A stretch of DNA of 64,000 nucleotides from Planctomycetota bacterium (GTDB taxonomy: Bacteria > Planctomycetota > UBA1135 > UBA2386), in the NCBI GenBank assembly GCA_965223545.1, contig OZ245006.1:7616001-7680000 (forward strand). Reading direction: 5' to 3'. The translations under genes and the position numbers were made by a program. Below the pieces are notes generated by a model that worked only from the letters and a program-made list of their open reading frames with translations, ran no database searches and was not told the origin of the DNA. Shown piece by piece: positions 1-38,286 of this stretch (position 1 is the first letter of the stretch; each line of letters begins with the position of its first letter).

Positions 1-1022
1 CGTAGCCAGGAGACGAAGTGCTTCTCGGTCGGGAAAGCTTCGAGGTCGTAGCCGACCTCGGTGAGCACGATCATGGCCGTGCTCGGGCTGATACCGTCGA
101 TTCGCGTGAGATCACACCCGACGAGCCGGCAGAGGGCATCGCGAAGCTCCCGGCCGCCCTTCGTTCGGATGCTCCTCTCCTTGCGGGGGTCTGGATGCTC
201 GGGGACGTCGGCCGTCTTGGCTTCCTCCGGTTGCAGGTCCTCGATCATCGCCATCAATCGCTTCTCGACCGACTCGATCTCGTGGTCGGTGTGCTCGAGC
301 ATCCGCAAGCCCGAAGCGAGAGTGAAGATGTGCTCCTCGATCCAGGTCCCTTGCAAGTGATCCGCGAGCTCCTTCTCGGAGATCTTGCAGCGCGGATCAC
401 GCAGTCTGGCGAGCGCTCGAGGGTCGCGTTCACCAGCGAGAATCGCGCGGATGATCGCGAGGCCGGTCTTGCCGGTGATGTCCGTTACCGCGCGATGGAT
501 CGCCACGTTCATCTGATCCAGTGACCGCTGCATCAACTGCGTGTGGCGCGTGCGCTGCGCGATCAAAGACGCGGCATGGCGTTGCAGGGTCCGCAACGCA
601 CAGATGTCCTTCGGAGGCCGGAACGAAGCGCGAATGAGGCCATAGGTGTGTAGCTTCTGCAGCCAACTGCAATCGCTGGCATCGGACTTGGAGCGGCCCG
701 GCACGTTCTTCACCTCGCGGGCATTCGCGAGGATGACCTCGAAGCCTCTCGACTCGAGTAGCTCGTAGACGGGAATCCAGTAGACATAGGTGCTCTCCAT
801 CGCGACGGATCGCACTCCGAGCTCCTCCAGCCAGTCCGCGAGCGCCTCTAGCTGGGGCGTCGTCGTTCCGAATCGCTTGATCGGACGACTGCCGTCGGGT
901 GCTGCTGCGCACACCCAGTGCTCGCGGCTGCCGATGTCGATTCCGGCGGCGTTGGGCTTCACGACTGGCAATACTTCCGCTGCGGGCTTCTTGCCCTTCC
1001 TCGTTCTGCTCTTCCCAGCCAT
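1..1022 (-). CDS. IS110 family transposase/recombinase, copy 1 (C-terminal end lies outside the window)
   Basis: Matches 36180..37201 (offset 36179); the only difference noticed is at position 39 (D->E). Contains the DEDD RuvC-like motifs GIDIGS, AMEST and KSDASD. Confidence 0.93.
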   Translation of the reverse strand, partial: MAGKSRTRKGKKPAAEVLPVVKPNAAGIDIGSREHWVCAAAPDGSRPIKRFGTTTPQLEALADWLEELGVRSVAMESTYVYWIPVYELLESRGFEVILANAREVKNVPGRSKSDASDCSWLQKLHTYGLIRASFRPPKDICALRTLQRHAASLIAQRTRHTQLMQRSLDQMNVAIHRAVTDITGKTGLAIIRAILAGERDPRALARLRDPRCKISEKELADHLQGTWIEEHIFTLASGLRMLEHTDHEIESVEKRLMAMIEDLQPEEAKTADVPEHPDPRKERSIRTKGGRELRDALCRLVGCDLTRIDGISPSTAMIVLTEVGYDLEAFPTEKHFVSWL

Positions 1023-1044
1023 ACTTCATCCTCATTGTTGTGGT

Positions 1045-1197
1045 GGGCCCGGCCCGAGGCGGCGATCAAACGAATCTGACCTGCGGGAGTGGGCACGGCG
1101 ACGTGCCCCTCACCAGTGAAGGATGGCCAACTCGGACCCAGACTGGCTCTGGGGCAAACGTGCTCCAGTGGCTATTGGGGGCGTAGCTGCCGGGCCC
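1045..1197 (-). ncRNA. Candidate IS110 bridge/seek RNA (copy 1)
   Basis: Non-coding segment upstream of the recombinase, closed by the inverted repeat GGGCCCGGC (1045..1053) / GCCGGGCCC (1189..1197). It has internal hairpins and matches to the donor junction (CTGACCTG, 1076..1083) and target (CTGGCTC, 1143..1149). Boundaries are approximate. Confidence 0.6.
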
Positions 1198-1286
1198 CTC
1201 ACACGTTCCCCTCCCCCTTCCTCAGCGGCTAGTTTCCTGCCCTGAAGGGCCGACAAATCTGCCGGGGCAGGACTGGCTCCGTACGT

Positions 1287-20333: not shown

Positions 20334-20860
20334 TACGAGCTGCGGGCGGCGACCCCGGAATCCCGTGTTTCGTCGTGGAGTGGCGCGCCCTCGGCCTCTG
20401 GACCGAGAGCTGCGGGCGGCGGTCCTGGTCGTGATGCGTGGATGCGCCGCTTGCGCTGAAGGTCGCGGAATCAAGAGCGCGCGTAGGAGTGCGCGTTTCG
20501 TCACGGAGTGGTGCGCACTCGCCTCAGCTCCGTCACCGTCGGCGGCGGTCGCACCCCGTGCCTCGTCTTGGACCGCTGTCGTCGGTGATGGTGGTGAGGC
20601 GAGCCTTCAGCTCTGGAGCTGGAGGTGGTGGGAGCTCTGGGGGCGCGCCTGCGCGGTCCCTCGGCCTCTGGATCGAGAGCTGCGGGCGGCGGTCCCGGTC
20701 GTGATGCGTGGGTGCGCCGCTTGCGCTGAAGGTCGCCGAATCAAGAGCGCGCGTAGGAGTGCGCGTTTCGTCACGGAGTGGTGCGCACTCGCCTCAGCTC
20801 CGTCACCGTCGGCGGCGGTCGCACCCCGTGCCTCGTCTTGGACCGCTGTCGTCGGTGATG

Positions 20861-22893
20861 TTGCGCCTGGCATGGGCGCAGAGTTGAAGATGAAAGTTCT
20901 TTATGGATCCGTACTGGAGGAAACCATGAGTCGAAGGCAGCTGCACGAGGCAGAAAGGGGAGCCGTGTGCCGTCCGAGAGGGCGGTGCGCGGTGTTGATC
21001 CGGGATGCCAGAACAGGACGGACACCGTGCCGTGCTGTTCCCGCGAGGTCGTGTGGGATGGAAGCCCTAGACGCAGCGCAGCACCGAGCGAAAGCGAAGT
21101 TCCGTAAGGCTCTCGAGGTCTGGGTCAGCGTGCCATCCAACGTGACGCCCGATATCCAGTCGCGACCTCGGAGTACTGGAACCGGCGGCGGCGCGAAACT
21201 CTGCGTTCTTACCCAGGGAGATCTCTGTGTGTCCGCTTCGAGCGGTAGGTGGGGAGGAGGCAACGACGACCCACCAAGGCATGCAGCGAAGTCGGATCAC
21301 CCCGTAGTAGTGATGAAGCCGGGTAATGCCGGTGGAGCGAAGGGGGTGACAGGATGAGAAAGCCGAAACCACGGCAACTGCAGTTCGCTTTCGCCGAGAG
21401 CCCGCAAGGGGACGGCGTGGCCGGAAGGGCAGACGAATCTGCCACGAAGTCCACGTCGGTGCCTACGACGGATTGCAGCCATCGATCGGAATCGGCTCCA
21501 CCGCCAGCGGACGGCTACTGCCATCTGCTGGAGCTGGTCGCGGAGCAGGGCAACCTGCGAAGCGCACTGGCACATGTCGTAAGCAAGAAGGGCGCCCCGG
21601 GCGTCGACGGACAGACGGTGTCAGAGGTCAAGCGTCATGCGAAACACCTGCTCCCGAAACTCCGCGATGCTCTGCTCATGGAGACCTACGCGCCCGGCGA
21701 TATTCGTCGGGTGTGGATCCCGAAGCCCAGTGGTGGGCAGCGGGGTCTCGGGATTCCAACCGTGATCGACCGCTGGGTCCAACAGGCCGTGCGCCAGATT
21801 CTGGAGCCGATCTACGACCCGACGTTCCACGACAGCAGCCACGGCTTCCGGCCGAGGCGGGGAGCCCACACAGCGATCGCCGAAGCAGCGGGTTACGTGA
21901 AGCAGGGTCGGCGGTACACGGTGGACATCGATTTGGAGAAGTTCTTCGACCGTGTCCATCACCAACGCCTCCTGGACCGGCTGGCTCAGAAGGTGAAGGA
22001 CCGTCGGGTGCTGCGGATCATCCGCCTGATGCTGAAAGCGAACGTGGTTCTTCCAGATGGCACCCGCGTCATCACGGAAGAAGGAACGCCCCAGGGCGGC
22101 CCGCTATCACCTCTGCTGTCCAACATCGTCCTGGACGAACTGGACTGGGAGTTGGAACGACGCGGGTTGCGTTTTGTGCGCTACGCCGACGACTGCAATA
22201 TCTACGTCGGTAGCGAGCGCTCAGGACACCGGGTCATGGCTTCGATTCGCAGGTTCATCGAACGTCGCGTGCGACTGAAAGTGAACGAAGCGAAGAGTTC
22301 CGTCGACCTGGCCCATCGCCGGCACTTCCTCGGGTTTCGCGTAGGCGCAACTCGAAAGGGCTGGCTGACGGTGCAGTTGTCCCGTCGCACTCTGGATCGC
22401 ATCGACGCCCGAATCCGTGAGCTTACGCCGCGGTCCTGGGGTGGTCGGCTGTCCTGGTGCATCGAACGACTGAACCGTTACCTCCGTGGTTGGATCGGCT
22501 ACTTCAAGCTGATCACGAAGGCCGCGTGGCGGACCTTGCGGAATCTCGATGGCCATATTCGACGACGCCTGCGGGCGATCATCATTCGGCAGAAGAAGAG
22601 ACCGCGATACCTCTTCCGAGACCTTGTCGCCCGTGGGTGCAGCTGGCAGTCGGCTGCACGCACCGCGTTTGGCCGGCGTGGCACGTGGTGGCAGAGCAAC
22701 TCGGGAGCGATCAAACGCGCTTATCCCAATCAGTGGTTTGCTGAGCGGCTGGTGTCGCTTTCCAAGCTCTGGGACGAGCGCCGTTACGACTGGCGGCCCC
22801 TTTGGGGGATACCGTCCTGAAGAGCCGGATGTGTGACCCACAAGTCCGGTTCTGTGAGAGCTGCGGGGGGGCAACCCCCCGCGGCTACTCGGC
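20861..22893 (+). mobile_element. Group II intron (IIC-like), 2033 nt
   Basis: Boundaries are fixed by comparison with the uninterrupted unit 1 (GTCGGTGATG|GTGGTGAGG). 5' end TTGCGCCTGGCATGGG; domain V at 22822..22852 (AGC triad); domain VI at 22856..22890 with bulged A at 22887, 7 nt from the 3' end. Confidence 0.92.
21354..22820 (+). CDS. ltrA: Group II intron reverse transcriptase/maturase without an endonuclease domain
   Basis: GAPGVDG, IPKPSGGQRGLGIPTVIDR, DLEKFFD, GTPQGGPLSPLLSNI, RYADD, LNRYLRGWIGYF; no HNH tail. Confidence 0.95.
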   Translation: MRKPKPRQLQFAFAESPQGDGVAGRADESATKSTSVPTTDCSHRSESAPPPADGYCHLLELVAEQGNLRSALAHVVSKKGAPGVDGQTVSEVKRHAKHLLPKLRDALLMETYAPGDIRRVWIPKPSGGQRGLGIPTVIDRWVQQAVRQILEPIYDPTFHDSSHGFRPRRGAHTAIAEAAGYVKQGRRYTVDIDLEKFFDRVHHQRLLDRLAQKVKDRRVLRIIRLMLKANVVLPDGTRVITEEGTPQGGPLSPLLSNIVLDELDWELERRGLRFVRYADDCNIYVGSERSGHRVMASIRRFIERRVRLKVNEAKSSVDLAHRRHFLGFRVGATRKGWLTVQLSRRTLDRIDARIRELTPRSWGGRLSWCIERLNRYLRGWIGYFKLITKAAWRTLRNLDGHIRRRLRAIIIRQKKRPRYLFRDLVARGCSWQSAARTAFGRRGTWWQSNSGAIKRAYPNQWFAERLVSLSKLWDERRYDWRPLWGIPS

Positions 22894-23230
22894 GTGGTGA
22901 GGCGAGCCTTCAGCTCTGGAGTTGGAGGTGGTGGGAGCTCTGGCGGCACGCCTGCGCGGTCCCTCGGCCTCTGGATCGAGAGCTGCGGGGGCCTCCCGCA
23001 GCTCCATCACCATCAGCGCCGGTCCAAGACGAGGCACAGGGTGCGACCGACGCCGATGGTGACGGAGCTGCGGGCGGCGGTCCCGGTCGTGATGCGTGGA
23101 TGCGCCGCTTGCGCTGAAGGTCGCCGAATCAAGAGCGCGCGTAGGAGTGCGCGTTTCGTCACGGAGTGGTGCGCACTCGCCTCAGCTCCGTCACCGTCAG
23201 CGAGTGCCCAAGATTACTTTGTGCGGGTTC

Positions 23231-23259
23231 TTGCATCTCCACGACCATTCTAGTAAGGT
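23231..23259 (+). promoter_or_regulatory. Putative sigma70 promoter of the Y1 transposase
   Basis: TTGCAT-17 bp-TAAGGT in an AT-richer patch, 11 nt upstream of ATG 23271. Confidence 0.4.
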
Positions 23260-35212: not shown

Positions 35213-35701
35213 GTGCCCGACCCCAATGAGGATTTCGTCTCGTTCGAGAAGGCTCTGCGCGATCTGAAGATGCAGAGCGAGGAGCTCAAGAAGCTGGTCT
35301 CCGAAGGCGAGATCCGCGCGTTCCGCGATGGCCAGTCGATGAAGTTCAAGCGCGAGGACATCGAGTCGCTCGCCGACCGAAACGAAGACGAGTTGGTGTT
35401 CGCCGACTCCCTCGAGGACGACACCGGCATGGTGACCGAGGAGCTCTCCGACGAGGAGACCCTGCTCGCCGAGGATGACCTCGAAGAGGAAGAGCCGGTG
35501 CGCCGCACGGCCGCGGCCGCCGCGCCTGCCCGCAGCCGCGCCCGCGCCGTCGAGGTCGAAGAAGAGACCAAGGAGCCCGCTTGGGTCACCGGCATCGCGA
35601 TCGTCGGCGCGATCATCGCCCTCTACGGCTTCATCGTGATCTACTCGATCGCCGCCGAGGCGCCCCCGAGCGGACTCACGTCCCTCTTCGCCAAGAGCTA
35701 G
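35213..35701 (+). CDS. Excisionase/MerR-like HTH protein with acidic linker and C-terminal TM
   Basis: SD GGAGGT before GTG; SFEKALRDLKMQSEELKKLVSEGEIRAFRDGQSMKFKREDIE is HTH_17-like; Asp/Glu-rich middle; C-terminal TM. Confidence 0.75.
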   Translation: MPDPNEDFVSFEKALRDLKMQSEELKKLVSEGEIRAFRDGQSMKFKREDIESLADRNEDELVFADSLEDDTGMVTEELSDEETLLAEDDLEEEEPVRRTAAAAAPARSRARAVEVEEETKEPAWVTGIAIVGAIIALYGFIVIYSIAAEAPPSGLTSLFAKS

Positions 35702-35718
35702 CGCCCGCGCCCGGGAAC

Positions 35719-35809
35719 CGTACGGAGTCAGGCTCGATTTTCTCGGCGCACGTACGGAGCCAGGCTCCGATTCATCACACGGCGCCGCCGGGTGATGAAT
35801 CGGAGCCTG
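35719..35809. repeat. Left part of a REP/REPIN-like palindrome disrupted by IS110
   Basis: 35719..35763 is the exact reverse complement of 37452..37496; contains two CGTACGGAGYCAGGCTC units. Confidence 0.85.
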
Positions 35810-35818
35810 ACCTGAAAC

Positions 35819-37201
35819 TCACCCAGCCTCGGCGATCGGTATGAGCTTGTACCCGAGGGATTTAGCGTTCTGTCGGAGTCCGACGATGCGTCGCTGGGTG
35901 AAGCGCTCCTCGTAGGCCTTGGCGCCTTCGTCTACGTAGTCCTGGCCGAACTTCAGCATGCGGTAGATGAGCAGGGCCAGTTTGCGGGCGATGGCAAAGA
36001 TGGCGACGTTGCCGTCCTTCGCGCGGGCGATCTTGCGGAAGTGTGCGCCGAGAGCTGTCTGAGTACGTTGGAGGGACAGGGCGGCCATCCGGAGGACCGT
36101 GGCGATCCTGCTGACCGCGATGTTGTTGCGGTGCTTCTTGATGCGCTTTCCACCCGAGACGGCTTGACGTGGGCACAGGCGTAGCCAGGAGACGAAGTGC
36201 TTCTCGGTCGGGAAAGCATCGAGGTCGTAGCCGACCTCGGTGAGCACGATCATGGCCGTGCTCGGGCTGATACCGTCGATTCGCGTGAGATCACACCCGA
36301 CGAGCCGGCAGAGGGCATCGCGAAGCTCCCGGCCGCCCTTCGTTCGGATGCTCCTCTCCTTGCGGGGGTCTGGATGCTCGGGGACGTCGGCCGTCTTGGC
36401 TTCCTCCGGTTGCAGGTCCTCGATCATCGCCATCAATCGCTTCTCGACCGACTCGATCTCGTGGTCGGTGTGCTCGAGCATCCGCAAGCCCGAAGCGAGA
36501 GTGAAGATGTGCTCCTCGATCCAGGTCCCTTGCAAGTGATCCGCGAGCTCCTTCTCGGAGATCTTGCAGCGCGGATCACGCAGTCTGGCGAGCGCTCGAG
36601 GGTCGCGTTCACCAGCGAGAATCGCGCGGATGATCGCGAGGCCGGTCTTGCCGGTGATGTCCGTTACCGCGCGATGGATCGCCACGTTCATCTGATCCAG
36701 TGACCGCTGCATCAACTGCGTGTGGCGCGTGCGCTGCGCGATCAAAGACGCGGCATGGCGTTGCAGGGTCCGCAACGCACAGATGTCCTTCGGAGGCCGG
36801 AACGAAGCGCGAATGAGGCCATAGGTGTGTAGCTTCTGCAGCCAACTGCAATCGCTGGCATCGGACTTGGAGCGGCCCGGCACGTTCTTCACCTCGCGGG
36901 CATTCGCGAGGATGACCTCGAAGCCTCTCGACTCGAGTAGCTCGTAGACGGGAATCCAGTAGACATAGGTGCTCTCCATCGCGACGGATCGCACTCCGAG
37001 CTCCTCCAGCCAGTCCGCGAGCGCCTCTAGCTGGGGCGTCGTCGTTCCGAATCGCTTGATCGGACGACTGCCGTCGGGTGCTGCTGCGCACACCCAGTGC
37101 TCGCGGCTGCCGATGTCGATTCCGGCGGCGTTGGGCTTCACGACTGGCAATACTTCCGCTGCGGGCTTCTTGCCCTTCCTCGTTCTGCTCTTCCCAGCCA
37201 T
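35819..37201 (-). CDS. IS110 family transposase/recombinase (460 aa)
   Basis: DEDD N-terminal domain (GIDIGS, AMEST, KSDASD); C-terminal Tnp20 domain (IDGIS, FPTEKHFVSW, SGGK serine, AIARKLA). Confidence 0.96.
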   Translation of the reverse strand: MAGKSRTRKGKKPAAEVLPVVKPNAAGIDIGSREHWVCAAAPDGSRPIKRFGTTTPQLEALADWLEELGVRSVAMESTYVYWIPVYELLESRGFEVILANAREVKNVPGRSKSDASDCSWLQKLHTYGLIRASFRPPKDICALRTLQRHAASLIAQRTRHTQLMQRSLDQMNVAIHRAVTDITGKTGLAIIRAILAGERDPRALARLRDPRCKISEKELADHLQGTWIEEHIFTLASGLRMLEHTDHEIESVEKRLMAMIEDLQPEEAKTADVPEHPDPRKERSIRTKGGRELRDALCRLVGCDLTRIDGISPSTAMIVLTEVGYDLDAFPTEKHFVSWLRLCPRQAVSGGKRIKKHRNNIAVSRIATVLRMAALSLQRTQTALGAHFRKIARAKDGNVAIFAIARKLALLIYRMLKFGQDYVDEGAKAYEERFTQRRIVGLRQNAKSLGYKLIPIAEAG

Positions 37202-37223
37202 ACTTCATCCTCATTGTTGTGGT

Positions 37224-37376
37224 GGGCCCGGCCCGAGGCGGCGATCAAACGAATCTGACCTGCGGGAGTGGGCACGGCGACGTGCCCCTCACCAGTGAAG
37301 GATGGCCAACTCGGACCCAGACTGGCTCTGGGGCAAACGTGCTCCAGTGGCTATTGGGGGCGTAGCTGCCGGGCCC
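37224..37376 (-). ncRNA. Candidate IS110 bridge/seek RNA (copy 2)
   Basis: Same as 1045..1197; donor match at 37255..37262 and target match at 37322..37328. Confidence 0.6.
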
Positions 37377-37454
37377 CTCACACGTTCCCCTCCCCCTTCC
37401 TCAGCGGCTAGTTTCCTGCCCTGAAGGGCCGACAAATCTGCCGGGGCAGGACTG

Positions 37455-37496
37455 GCTCCGTACGTGCGCCGAGAAAATCGAGCCTGACTCCGTACG
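37455..37496. repeat. Right part of the REP/REPIN-like palindrome
   Basis: Reverse complement of 35719..35760. Confidence 0.85.
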
Positions 37497-37614
37497 CACT
37501 ACGTTGACGGCGCTCGGTGGTCGCGCCAGACTGGGCCCCTGCCCGCGTCGATCTCGGTCTGTCGGCCGCGGCGCGAACAGCAGCTACGTTCGACACCTTT
37601 TGCCGGAGGGGGCC

Positions 37615-38286
37615 ATGCACCGTGTGTCCATCATCGCTGTCGCGATGCTCGCCATGTCACTCCACAGCTGCGTCAGCCCGGAGGCGCACCGCCAGCTGAT
37701 CGCCGCCAACGAGGCGCTGCGGGGGCAGATCGGCGATCTCGAGGCCTACCACCGCCAACTCGAAGAGGAGAACCGCAGGTTGGGTGGCGAGGTCGACCGG
37801 CTGGGTCGCAACGCGGTCGACGCCGCGCATTTGCGGCAGCAGAAGGAGGAGCTGGCCCGCTTGATCGAGCAGTTCCAGAACGGCGGCGGCCGCAACCTAC
37901 AGGGCGTGACGGTGCGCGAGACCGCCGAGGGTGTCGTCTTCGAGTTGCAGGGCGAGGTCCTGTTCAGCTCCGGCCAGGCGACGATCACCGAGTCGGGCCA
38001 GGGCGTGCTCGGCCAGCTGGTGCCGATCCTGCGCGAGCACCGGCACGCCGTGCGGATCGATGGCCACACGGACTCCGATCCCATCCGCCGCAGCCAGTGG
38101 CGCACCAACCTGCGCCTGTCGGCCGAACGCTCGATCGCCGTCGTCGAGTACCTGATCTCCAGCGGCGTCGATCCGGCGCAGCTGCACGTCTCGGCCTTCG
38201 GCGAGCACCGCCCGGCGGTGGCCGGAACCGACGACGCGTCCAAGAGCCGCAATCGGCGCGTCGAGATCATGATGCTGCGGCAATAG
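37615..38286 (+). CDS. OmpA/MotB-family peptidoglycan-binding lipoprotein with coiled coil
   Basis: SD GGAGG; LHSC lipobox-like; LFSSG, IDGHTDSDPI, NLRLSAERS, NRRVEI. Confidence 0.88.
   Translation: MHRVSIIAVAMLAMSLHSCVSPEAHRQLIAANEALRGQIGDLEAYHRQLEEENRRLGGEVDRLGRNAVDAAHLRQQKEELARLIEQFQNGGGRNLQGVTVRETAEGVVFELQGEVLFSSGQATITESGQGVLGQLVPILREHRHAVRIDGHTDSDPIRRSQWRTNLRLSAERSIAVVEYLISSGVDPAQLHVSAFGEHRPAVAGTDDASKSRNRRVEIMMLRQ

What the first reader, a model, noticed from the sequence alone, without database searches (positions are those of the whole stretch)
1045..1197. IS110 non-coding end looks like a bridge RNA whose loops match the actual target and donor junctions
Seen: the ~250-bp non-coding end upstream of the recombinase (same in both copies; copy 2 at 37224..37376) is closed by a 9-bp stem, GGGCCCGGC/GCCGGGCCC. 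On the minus strand it has two hairpins (CUGGAGCA-CGUU-UGCCCCAG and GGGCACG-UCGC-CGUGCCC), each starting at or near a CACUGG motif. The first runs into GAGCCAG, matching the target CTGGCTC (1143..1149). The second is followed by CAGGUCAG, matching the opposite element end CTGACCTG (1076..1083 vs 35807..35814). Both matches include the CTG core, with target first and donor second. Established: IS110/IS621 recombinases use a bispecific bridge RNA from the non-coding end, with target- and donor-binding loops. Inference: this is a new RNA-guided recombinase/bridge RNA pair, with a longer (460 aa) enzyme and a 3-nt apparent core. Short matches can arise by chance, and the palindromic target makes left/right guide assignment ambiguous.
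Basis: partly seen in the sequence, partly recalled or inferred. Interest (0 to 1): 0.85.

Follow-up and report, generated by a model that had tools for sequence, protein, structure and literature searches.

The report
Bridge RNA of an active IS110 element
The non-coding stretch ahead of this jumping gene's recombinase very probably encodes a two-loop guide ("bridge") RNA that spells out both its insertion site and its own end, a mechanism known since 2024, here in a lineage with an unusual guide layout.

Summary
The window carries one full and one cut copy of a 1645-bp IS110-family element. The genome holds 23 copies, all with an intact 460-aa recombinase gene and an identical 153-nt structured region ahead of it.

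A covariance model finds the same fold ahead of 46 related recombinase genes from many phyla, and 28 of its 32 base pairs show compensatory changes. In the relatives:
- The 3' strand of loop 1 changes together with the left flank.
- The 3' strand of loop 2 changes together with the last 7 nt of the right end.

So these are a target loop and a donor loop.

- The shared core is the dinucleotide AG (CT on the other strand, as in IS621). The third shared base in this element is a coincidence.
- The long guides lie on the 3' side of each loop, opposite to IS621 and ISEc21. This is the order printed for IS1111-family seekRNAs.

New here:
- A covarying 5-7-bp subterminal inverted repeat.
- A donor-loop 5' strand that matches an internal left-end segment in the same sense. 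This is unexplained.

No RNA data exist. This scan has noted such bridge RNAs on other DNA before, including one with swapped guide sides (e1-7863684).

The parts
35807..37451 (-). Full copy of the insertion sequence (1645 bp, counted with the AG core at its right end)
   Evidence: Boundaries come from 23 genomic copies whose flanks diverge exactly here.
35819..37201 (-). Recombinase gene, 460 aa (DEDD RuvC-like domain 26-171, Tnp domain 305-383)
   Evidence: Pfam PF01548 and PF02371. NCBIfam NF033542, 248 bits against a cut-off of 140. IS621 8wt6 at E 7.5e-11, with D29, E76, D114, D117 and S349 aligned to the catalytic residues. The ORF is intact in 23 of 23 copies.
37224..37376 (-). Bridge RNA core, 153 nt, closed by a 9-bp stem. 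The target-binding loop comes first and the donor-binding loop second.
   Evidence: Covariance model R1 scores 146.6 bits here. The sequence is identical in 23 of 23 copies.
37319..37330 (-). Target loop, 3' strand CAGAGCCAGUCU. GAGCCAG (37322-37328) equals the left flank plus the AG core. The next UC (37320-37321) equals the first two bases of the element (handshake-like).
   Evidence: The base after AG equals the first base of the left end in 22 of 26 relatives and the second in 13 of 26.
37346..37357 (-). Target loop, 5' strand CCAAUAGCCACU. AGCC (37349-37352) is complementary to the right flank (G of the core plus GCT). It is followed by the conserved CAYU.
   Evidence: Across 20 relatives this strand without its last 4 nt is complementary to the right flank: 54 of 120 positions against 32.8 +/- 5.1, reached in 0 of 2000 permutations. 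In this element only 3-4 nt pair.
37255..37263 (-). Donor loop, 3' strand guide GCAGGUCAG, equal to the last 8 nt of the right end including the AG core
37294..37309 (-). Donor loop, 5' strand UUGGCCAUCCUUCACU. It is not complementary to the left-end terminus. It matches segment X in the same sense.
   Evidence: No signal against the left-end terminus. Identity to X is shown.
37422..37429 (-). Segment X (GCCCTTCA) in the left end, 23-30 nt from its tip, after a small GC hairpin. It has the same sense as the donor loop's 5' strand (6 of 8 here).
   Evidence: At least 7 of 8 nt identical in 12 of 27 relatives against 12 of 640 mismatched pairs, always 20-29 nt from the left-end tip. No reverse-complement partner exists in the elements.
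37411..37415 (-). GAAAC, the left arm of a subterminal inverted repeat
   Evidence: It is conserved 33-45 nt inside the left end of relatives.
35814..35818 (-). GTTTC, the right arm of the subterminal inverted repeat, 7 nt from the right tip
   Evidence: The two bases next to the repeat covary with the left arm: 20 of 32 against 10.5 +/- 2.2, reached in 1 of 5000 permutations.
35807..35814 (-). Right-end terminal 8 nt (CAGGTCAG in element sense), read by the donor loop
37452..37463 (-). Left flank of copy 2 (GTACGGAGCCAG in element sense). The AG core is at 37452-37453.
35796..35806 (-). Right flank of copy 2 (GCTCCGATTCA in element sense)
35719..35763 (.). Left arm, in window coordinates, of the perfect 45-nt inverted repeat (partner 37452-37496) that brackets copy 2. 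With 35764-35806 it forms a long REP-like palindrome that was the insertion site.
   Evidence: Repeat I3, 100% complementary, and direct reading.
1..1272 (-). Copy 1, cut by the window start. Its bridge RNA is at 1045-1197, the target guide at 1143-1149, the donor guide at 1076-1083 and the left flank with core at 1273-1284.
   Evidence: The model match is 1042-1197.

Best explanation
**What it is.** This is an active IS110-family insertion sequence. Its 250-nt left end encodes a bridge RNA.

**Fold.** A 9-bp outer stem encloses two stem-closed internal loops. Each loop has a 5' strand ending in CAYU, a hairpin, and a 3' strand that carries a guide ending in AG.

**Target loop.**
- The 3' strand (GAGCCAG) has the sense of the left flank plus the core, so it pairs with the opposite DNA strand.
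- Its next 1-2 bases match the first bases of the element, like the handshake guides of IS621.
- The 5' strand (AGCC) pairs with the right flank on the other DNA strand.

**Donor loop.** The 3' strand (CAGGUCAG) has the sense of the element's right tip plus the core.

**Reaction.** The recombinase carries the DEDD residues plus the serine. It exchanges strands at the shared dinucleotide, AG in element sense and CT on the other strand. This inserts the circular form into a REP-like palindrome, GTACGGAGCC-A-GGCTCCG. The central A/T base pair is the only asymmetry, so it sets the orientation.

**Shown here:** the fold, the covariation of guides with flanks, the catalytic residues, and recent activity.

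**Inferred:** that the RNA is made, that it binds the enzyme, and the chemistry (by homology with IS621).
For: **Activity**
- 23 copies at 99.3% identity or more.
- 23 of 23 have an intact ORF and an identical RNA region.
- 23 of 23 left flanks end GGAGCCAG and 22 of 23 right flanks start GCTCC.
- 85 unoccupied GGAGCCAGGCTCC sites exist in the genome, against 1.5 expected.

**Structure**
- 48 model matches at E of 1 or less in the window and 75 relatives' loci, always on the recombinase strand.
- 95.2% of cells pair against 72.2% in shuffles, and 28 of 32 pairs change on both sides.
- Many G-U pairs (for example 19 at one pair) would be C-A on the other strand. This argues for an RNA of this sense.

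**Guides**
- The highest mutual-information pairs are left-flank positions -7 to -3 with the loop-1 3' strand, and right-end positions -7 to -3 with the loop-2 3' strand. Their same-sense identity is 0.76-1.0.
- The loop-1 5' strand is complementary to the right flank.
- Handshake-like positions match in 22 of 26 and 13 of 26 relatives.
- Eight plasmid relatives not used for the model show the same by eye. A shared word of 9 nt or more links the loop-1 zone and the left-flank zone in 6 of 8, against 2 of 36 cross pairs.

**Enzyme:**
Against: - There is no direct evidence that the RNA exists.
- No sigma-70-like promoter was found in the integrated copy (0 found). None was found at a consistent place across the joined ends of 18 elements.
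- In single-copy relatives the left boundary was located by the guide match itself. Independent boundaries exist only for this element and two multi-copy groups: L040/L041/L087 and L047/L048/L064.
- The alignment used for pair counts was fitted to the model.
- In this element the right-flank guide is only 3-4 nt, and the target is palindromic. The assignment of the 5' strand therefore rests on relatives. Several relatives show no such pairing (L040, L033, L042, L034, L055a, L094, L054).
- The donor loop's 5' strand does not pair with the left-end terminus as the IS621 model requires.
Confidence: 0.87

Rival explanations
1. The region is only a structured 5' leader that controls recombinase expression. 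Its 3' end lies about 20 nt before the start codon. On this reading the two matches to the junctions are chance.
For: The outer stem ends close to the ribosome-binding region. Older literature assigned regulatory roles to IS110 non-coding ends (Durrant et al., passages). No RNA ends are known here.
Against: Chance cannot explain guide segments that change with the flanks in dozens of relatives while the stems stay conserved. A leader role in addition to the guide role is not excluded.
Confidence: 0.04
2. The conserved helices act as DNA structures (cruciforms or single-strand hairpins) bound by the recombinase, with no RNA involved.
For: The element has a covarying subterminal inverted repeat and a small palindrome in the left end. 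The target is itself a palindrome.
Against: G-U pairs are frequent in the helices and would be mismatches on the complementary strand. All model matches lie on the recombinase strand. The homologous enzymes IS621 and ISCro4 are solved with a bridge RNA (one search lists the entries; passages of PMC11208158).
Confidence: 0.05
3. The element works as an IS1111-type seekRNA system rather than an IS621-type bridge RNA. The RNA selects the target, while the ends are recognised mainly through the subterminal inverted repeats.
For: The guide order (the top-strand complement 5' of the bottom-strand complement) is the one printed for IS1111-family seekRNAs (Siddiquee et al., abstract and passages). A 5-7-bp subterminal repeat is present. 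The donor loop's 5' strand does not read the left-end tip.
Against: The non-coding region lies upstream of the gene, and the right end is only 9 nt past the stop codon. The second loop's 3' strand tracks the right-end tip as strictly as a donor guide should.
Confidence: 0.1

Closest known systems
IS621 and ISCro4 bridge recombinases with bridge RNA (IS110 group; Durrant et al. 2024 PMC11208160; Hiraizumi et al. 2024 PMC11208158; PDB 8wt6, 9t56)
   Same: DEDD plus serine recombinase. The non-coding left end lies upstream of the gene. The RNA has two stem-closed internal loops, target loop first. The guides overlap a shared dinucleotide core, CT/AG. The 3' strand carries guide-AG followed by handshake-like bases. 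The target is a REP-like repeat.
   Different: Sequence relation is weak (E 7.5e-11, two stretches). The enzyme has 460 aa against 326, with a longer linker between the domains. The guides with the sense of the left flank and of the right end sit on the 3' strand of each loop. In IS621 they sit on the 5' strand (LTG 50-58, LDG 123-130). An outer stem encloses both loops. The 5'-strand guides are short and followed by a conserved CAYU. The donor loop's 5' strand does not read the left-end tip.
ISEc21 seekRNA (IS110 type; Siddiquee et al. 2024, PMC11187229)
   Same: The non-coding region lies upstream of the transposase gene. Short segments match both strands of the target.
   Different: In ISEc21 the top-strand match lies 3' of the bottom-strand match (passage). 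Here the order is the reverse.
IS1111-family seekRNAs (ISEc11, ISPa11, ISKpn4; Siddiquee et al. 2024)
   Same: The order of the two target-matching segments is the same: top-strand complement first. This assumes that their 'top strand' is the strand of transposase sense. The figures were not visible, so I could not confirm that. Subterminal inverted repeats are present.
   Different: Their RNA lies downstream of the gene, and their repeats are 11-13 bp with 7-bp and 3-bp terminal extensions (passages). Here the RNA lies upstream. The repeat is 5-7 bp, with 7 nt beyond it on the right and 33-45 nt on the left.
ISPpu10 of Pseudomonas putida (preprint 10.64898/2026.03.19.712850)
   Same: An IS110 element that inserts into a REP stem-loop. 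There, the target's own hairpin adds to base pairing (passages).
   Different: ISPpu10 was mapped with the IS621 pairing logic. Whether the palindrome matters here was not tested.

Membership tests
IS110 family RNA-guided recombinases | RuvC-like DEDD domain plus Tnp domain with the catalytic serine | tested here: met
   PF01548 and PF02371. NF033542 at 248 bits against a cut-off of 140. D29, E76, D114, D117 and S349 align with IS621 D11, E60, D102, D105 and S241 (residue roles from the passages).
IS110 group (IS621-like) | Long non-coding left end upstream of the gene and a short right end | tested here: met
   The left end is 250 nt. The right end is 12 nt counted from the stop codon.
IS110 group (IS621-like) | Two-loop bridge RNA whose loops covary with target and donor | tested here: met
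IS110 group (IS621-like) | CT core dinucleotide shared by target and donor | tested here: met
   AG in element sense equals CT on the other strand. It is nearly invariant in both loops of relatives. Exceptions are AA- or AC-like cores in a plasmid branch and in L079 and L084.
IS110 group (IS621-like) | Guides with the sense of the left flank and right end lie on the 5' strand of each loop | tested here: not met
   They lie on the 3' strand.
IS110 group (IS621-like) | Promoter rebuilt across the joined right and left ends | tested here: inconclusive
   No consistent sigma-70-like pair was found at the junction in 18 elements. Several relatives have a candidate inside the left end, near GAAAC.
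IS110 group (IS621-like) | Handshake bases after the core-pairing AG that match the other DNA | tested here: met
   In the target loop, 22 of 26 and 13 of 26 relatives match left-end bases 1 and 2. In the donor loop the signal is weak: 7 of 20 match right-flank base 1, reached in 107 of 5000 permutations.
IS1111 group | Guide RNA region downstream of the gene | tested here: not met
   Only 9 nt follow the stop codon.
IS1111 group | Subterminal inverted repeats of 7-17 bp | tested here: inconclusive
   A covarying repeat exists but is 5-7 bp and asymmetrically placed.
Bridge RNA / seekRNA as an RNA | The transcript exists and binds the recombinase | not testable with these tools
   No RNA run holds the sequence.

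The most novel reading that the evidence does not exclude
In this lineage both strands of the donor loop read the same DNA strand.
- The 3' strand pairs with the CT-bearing strand at the right tip.
- The 5' strand pairs with that same strand at segment X, 20-29 nt inside the left end.
- These two sites are bracketed by a covarying inverted repeat (GTTTC/GAAAC) and separated by a small hairpin.

This would fit a donor that is recognised as a folded single strand, for example a single-stranded top-strand circle. Two recent preprints propose such a circle for IS621 and CazIS110-1 (abstracts). On this reading the DNA fold-back replaces the missing second strand.
Probability: 0.15. Interest if true: 0.75.

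Novelty: new variant of a known kind. Interest (0 to 1): 0.42.

Why it matters
- **Standing of the finding.** Bridge RNAs are established, so this element does not open a new class.
- **A natural experiment.** The lineage is wide, from myxobacteria-like genomes to Acidobacteriota, Bacteroidota, cyanobacterial and proteobacterial plasmids. One conserved scaffold carries many different guide pairs, which amounts to natural reprogramming.
- **A mixed layout.** The RNA lies upstream as in IS110. The guide order and subterminal repeat resemble IS1111. This bears on how the two groups are related.
- **An open mechanistic question.** The donor loop's same-sense match to an internal left-end segment is not predicted by the IS621 structures. 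It bears on the current dispute over whether these elements move as double-stranded or single-stranded circles.
- **A test candidate.** With 23 identical intact copies, this element is a good ortholog to test.

Tried and rejected
- **Rfam.** A scan of 35500-37800 at E of 1 or less found no bridge-RNA family. It gave only weak microRNA-model matches on the flanking palindrome.
- **RNA evidence.** No RNA holder is listed among 24 runs.
- **Promoters.** None was found in the integrated copy. None lay at a consistent position across the joined ends.
- **Single-sequence folding.** It mis-drew hairpin 1. RNAalifold paired part of the donor guide with the loop's 5' side. I left those pairs out of the model because relatives do not support them.
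- **Donor loop 5' strand against the left-end tip.** No signal at any offset. The best results were 36 of 120 (p 0.045) and 29 of 120 (p 0.066).
- **A reverse-complement partner of that strand.** None was found at a consistent place in the elements.
- **Three-nucleotide core.** Rejected as a family feature.
- **Held-out plasmid relatives.**
  - Only 3 of 8 passed the model with default filters, so I read them by eye.
  - The longest-shared-word test for the right end was noisy. The expected word won in 4 of 8.
  - The match to segment X was not evident in them.
- **Literature on this layout.**
  - Two full-text searches were run.
  - Passages were read in PMC11208160, PMC11208158 and PMC11187229 and in two preprints: 10.64898/2026.03.19.712850 and 10.1101/2024.06.21.599552.
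  - Abstracts only were read of PMC13626964, 10.64898/2026.08.31.748434 and 10.1101/2025.10.25.684509.
  - I found no description of an upstream RNA with this guide order, nor of the internal same-sense match.
  - Figures were not visible and the supplements of Durrant et al. and Siddiquee et al. were not opened. Those lists of predicted bridge RNAs may already include this lineage.

Full report
**What is there**

The recombinase gene lies on the minus strand. Copy 2 has an ORF at 35819-37201 that encodes 460 aa. Copy 1 is cut by the window start. The protein carries the two IS110 domains. It reaches the curated cut-off of NCBIfam's 'IS110 family RNA-guided transposase'.

Its only solved relatives are IS621 and ISCro4 (E 7.5e-11 and 5.9e-9). 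D29, E76, D114, D117 and S349 align with the catalytic DEDD residues and serine of IS621 (residue roles from passages of PMC11208158).

**Copies and insertion site**

- The genome holds 23 full copies at 99.3% identity or more. All have an intact 460-aa ORF and an identical 153-nt structured region.
- Comparing the 23 pairs of flanks fixes the ends. In element sense the left flank ends GGAGCCAG in 23 of 23 copies. The element runs from TCCTGCC to GTTTCAGGTCAG. The right flank starts GCTCC in 22 of 23.
- The empty site is a REP-like palindrome, GTACGGAGCC-A-GGCTCCG. Its 13-nt centre occurs 85 further times in the genome, against 1.5 expected.
- Copy 2 sits in one arm of a long perfect palindrome (repeat I3).

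All quoted sequences are at the stated places. On base composition the 7-mer and 8-mer would fall in a 153-nt stretch about 2% and 0.2% of the time. That estimate is scaled from the shuffles.

**The RNA fold**

Upstream regions of 75 relatives from many phyla (33-78% protein identity) share a clear pattern. I aligned eleven of them and gave the alignment a hand-curated structure based on RNAalifold. I then built a covariance model.

The model finds 48 matches at E of 1 or less. Two are in the window and 46 are in the loci. All lie on the recombinase strand, just upstream of the gene.

On their alignment, 95.2% of cells pair against 72.2% in shuffles. 28 of 32 pairs change on both sides, and slid controls give 32-55%. 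This alignment was fitted to the model, which favours it.

The fold has these parts:
- An outer 9-bp stem.
- A 4-bp stem closing loop 1, with a hairpin GG(N)GC/GCCC.
- A CCGAG/CUCGG stem closing loop 2, with a hairpin GG(U)GAG plus a variable stem and CUCCC.

Frequent G-U pairs argue for an RNA of recombinase sense. They do not hold family-wide.

**Guides**

The variable segments are the two 3' strands. For the tests I kept 39 matches whose loop strings were at least 12 nt long. Eight were dropped for that reason: L043, L067-L072 and L082. That left 32 distinct elements.

- *Loop 1, 3' strand.* Its 8 nt ending in AG recur in the same sense 40-130 nt upstream of the RNA. At least 7 of 8 nt match in 18 of 32 own pairs against 34 of 990 mismatched pairs.
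- *Loop 2, 3' strand.* Its 7 nt ending in AG equal the last 7 nt of the right end in 22 of 27 own pairs against 10 of 674. Five elements had too little sequence there.
- *Mutual information.* A scan of all RNA columns against junction positions ranks exactly these positions first, with same-sense identity of 0.76-1.0 (21 elements).
- *Independent boundaries.* Multi-copy relatives confirm the boundaries. L040, L041 and L087 share the element but not the flanks beyond GCTCTAG.
- *Handshake-like bases.* The base after AG in loop 1 equals the first base of the element in 22 of 26 relatives (1 of 5000 permutations). The next base matches in 13 of 26 (36 of 5000). Neither tracks the right flank's first base. 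This behaves like the handshake guides of IS621 (passages).
- *Loop 1, 5' strand.* Without its last four bases (CAYU) it is complementary to the right flank: 54 of 120 positions against 32.8 +/- 5.1, reached in 0 of 2000 permutations. The pairing is short (3-6 nt) and absent in several relatives.

In this element the guides are GAGCCAG plus UC, AGCC, and CAGGUCAG.

**The core**

AG ends both guides in nearly all relatives. The base before it is equal in target and donor in only 11 of 20 relatives. The family core is therefore AG, which is CT on the other strand, the IS621 core. The third shared base here is incidental.

**Layout compared with known systems**

In IS621 the guides with the sense of the left flank and of the right end are LTG 50-58 and LDG 123-130. 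They lie on the 5' side of each loop, and the AG-bearing guides plus handshake bases lie on the 3' side.

Here the RNA keeps the pattern of CU-ending 5' strand and AG-plus-handshake 3' strand. The DNA arms are exchanged, however. The 3' strands read the left flank and the right end. Put another way, the RNA-and-gene cassette is inverted relative to the CT strand.

Siddiquee et al. report that the order of top- and bottom-strand matches differs between IS110-type ISEc21 and IS1111-family seekRNAs (abstract and passages). This element has the IS1111 order but the IS110 location. That reading assumes their 'top strand' is the transposase-sense strand. I could not see their figures to confirm it.

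**Further features found here**

1. *Subterminal inverted repeat.* NNGTTTC lies 7 nt from the right tip. It is the reverse complement of GAAACNN, which lies 33-45 nt inside the left end. The NN positions covary: 20 of 32 against 10.5 +/- 2.2, reached in 1 of 5000 permutations. This used 16 elements. Four had no such motif and were dropped, and L036 was kept although its right end is doubtful.
2. *Left-end leader.* The left end starts with 7-9 variable bases and a small covarying GC hairpin.
3. *Donor loop 5' strand.* It shows no complementarity to the left-end tip. It is identical in sense to segment X, which follows that hairpin. At least 7 of 8 nt match in 12 of 27 elements against 12 of 640 mismatched pairs, always 20-29 nt from the tip. 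In this element 6 of 8 match. No reverse-complement partner exists in the elements.

This strand could therefore pair only with the DNA strand that the 3' guide also reads. The IS621 structures do not predict this, and I cannot explain it. The relation is strong in the close clade. It is weak in the Acidobacteriota group. It was not evident in the plasmid relatives.

**Held-out check**

Eight plasmid-borne relatives (43-46% identity) were not used for the model.
- Only 3 pass the model with default filters.
- By eye all eight show the same modules. Their loop-1 3' strand recurs at the left boundary, and in 7 of 8 the loop-2 3' strand recurs at the right tip.
- A shared word of 9 nt or more links the loop-1 zone and the left-flank zone in 6 of 8, against 2 of 36 cross pairs.

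**What is missing**

There is no RNA evidence, because no RNA run is listed. No convincing promoter was found. Rfam has no family for this RNA.

**Verdict**

The finding is a correct reading of a known mechanism in an uncharacterised, widespread lineage. The layout is a variant, and one unexplained donor-side feature is worth a bench test. This scan holds 73 notes on IS110 bridge RNAs in other genomes. One of them reports swapped guide sides (e1-7863684).

Noticed in passing
window 35719-35806 and 37452-37496; genome-wide: The insertion site belongs to a REP-like palindrome family (TGAA-N-GTACGGAGCC-A-GGCTCCG...). It often lies right after a TGA. The 13-nt centre has 85 unoccupied copies in the genome, against 1.5 expected.
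   Followed up: partly
G000:C1:1714937-1718293; G000:C1:4826219-4829709: Two pairs of copies lie head to tail. In the first pair the second copy's left flank is the palindrome next to the first copy's right end. In the second pair both copies share the same 60-nt left flank. One of them has the only deviant right flank (CAGACACC), which suggests a rearrangement or duplication.
   Followed up: no
six genomic copies (e.g. G000:C1:1716607-1718293), left-end positions 10-20: Six of 23 copies carry a G-to-A change and an extra T in the small left-end hairpin. This makes it a perfect CCGACA/TGTCGG stem. The same six share three recombinase substitutions (G3R, S5G, A457V).
   Followed up: partly
L107, L108, L109, L112, L113 (plasmids of Agrobacterium, Sphingomonas, Ochrobactrum, Citrobacter, Providencia): These relatives have a loop-1 guide UUAAAAAAC. 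They sit in ...GACATCCTAAAAAA|GGCC..., which looks like the A-rich frameshift site of an IS3-family transposase gene (motif recalled, not tested). Their core reads AA or AC rather than AG.
   Followed up: partly
L034, L059, L055b, L110, L111: The left flank of these relatives looks like the right end of a family member (GTT(T/A)C plus 7 nt), and their target guide matches it. Some lineages therefore home next to the right end of related elements and build tandem arrays.
   Followed up: partly
L036:2870-2890: Here the sequence after the stop codon (GTTTCGGGCAAG) matches the element's target guide, not its donor guide (GGGUCAG). This may be a product of recombination between look-alike target and donor sites.
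   Followed up: no
window 20383-23251: An unrelated repeat cluster: three direct copies of about 211 nt (97% and 73% identical) and inverted arms of 69-78 nt.
   Followed up: no
one search run list: Half or more of the element's sampled words occur in contigs of 11 runs, under eight organism labels and eight studies. Near-identical copies may therefore be spread beyond this genome.
   Followed up: no
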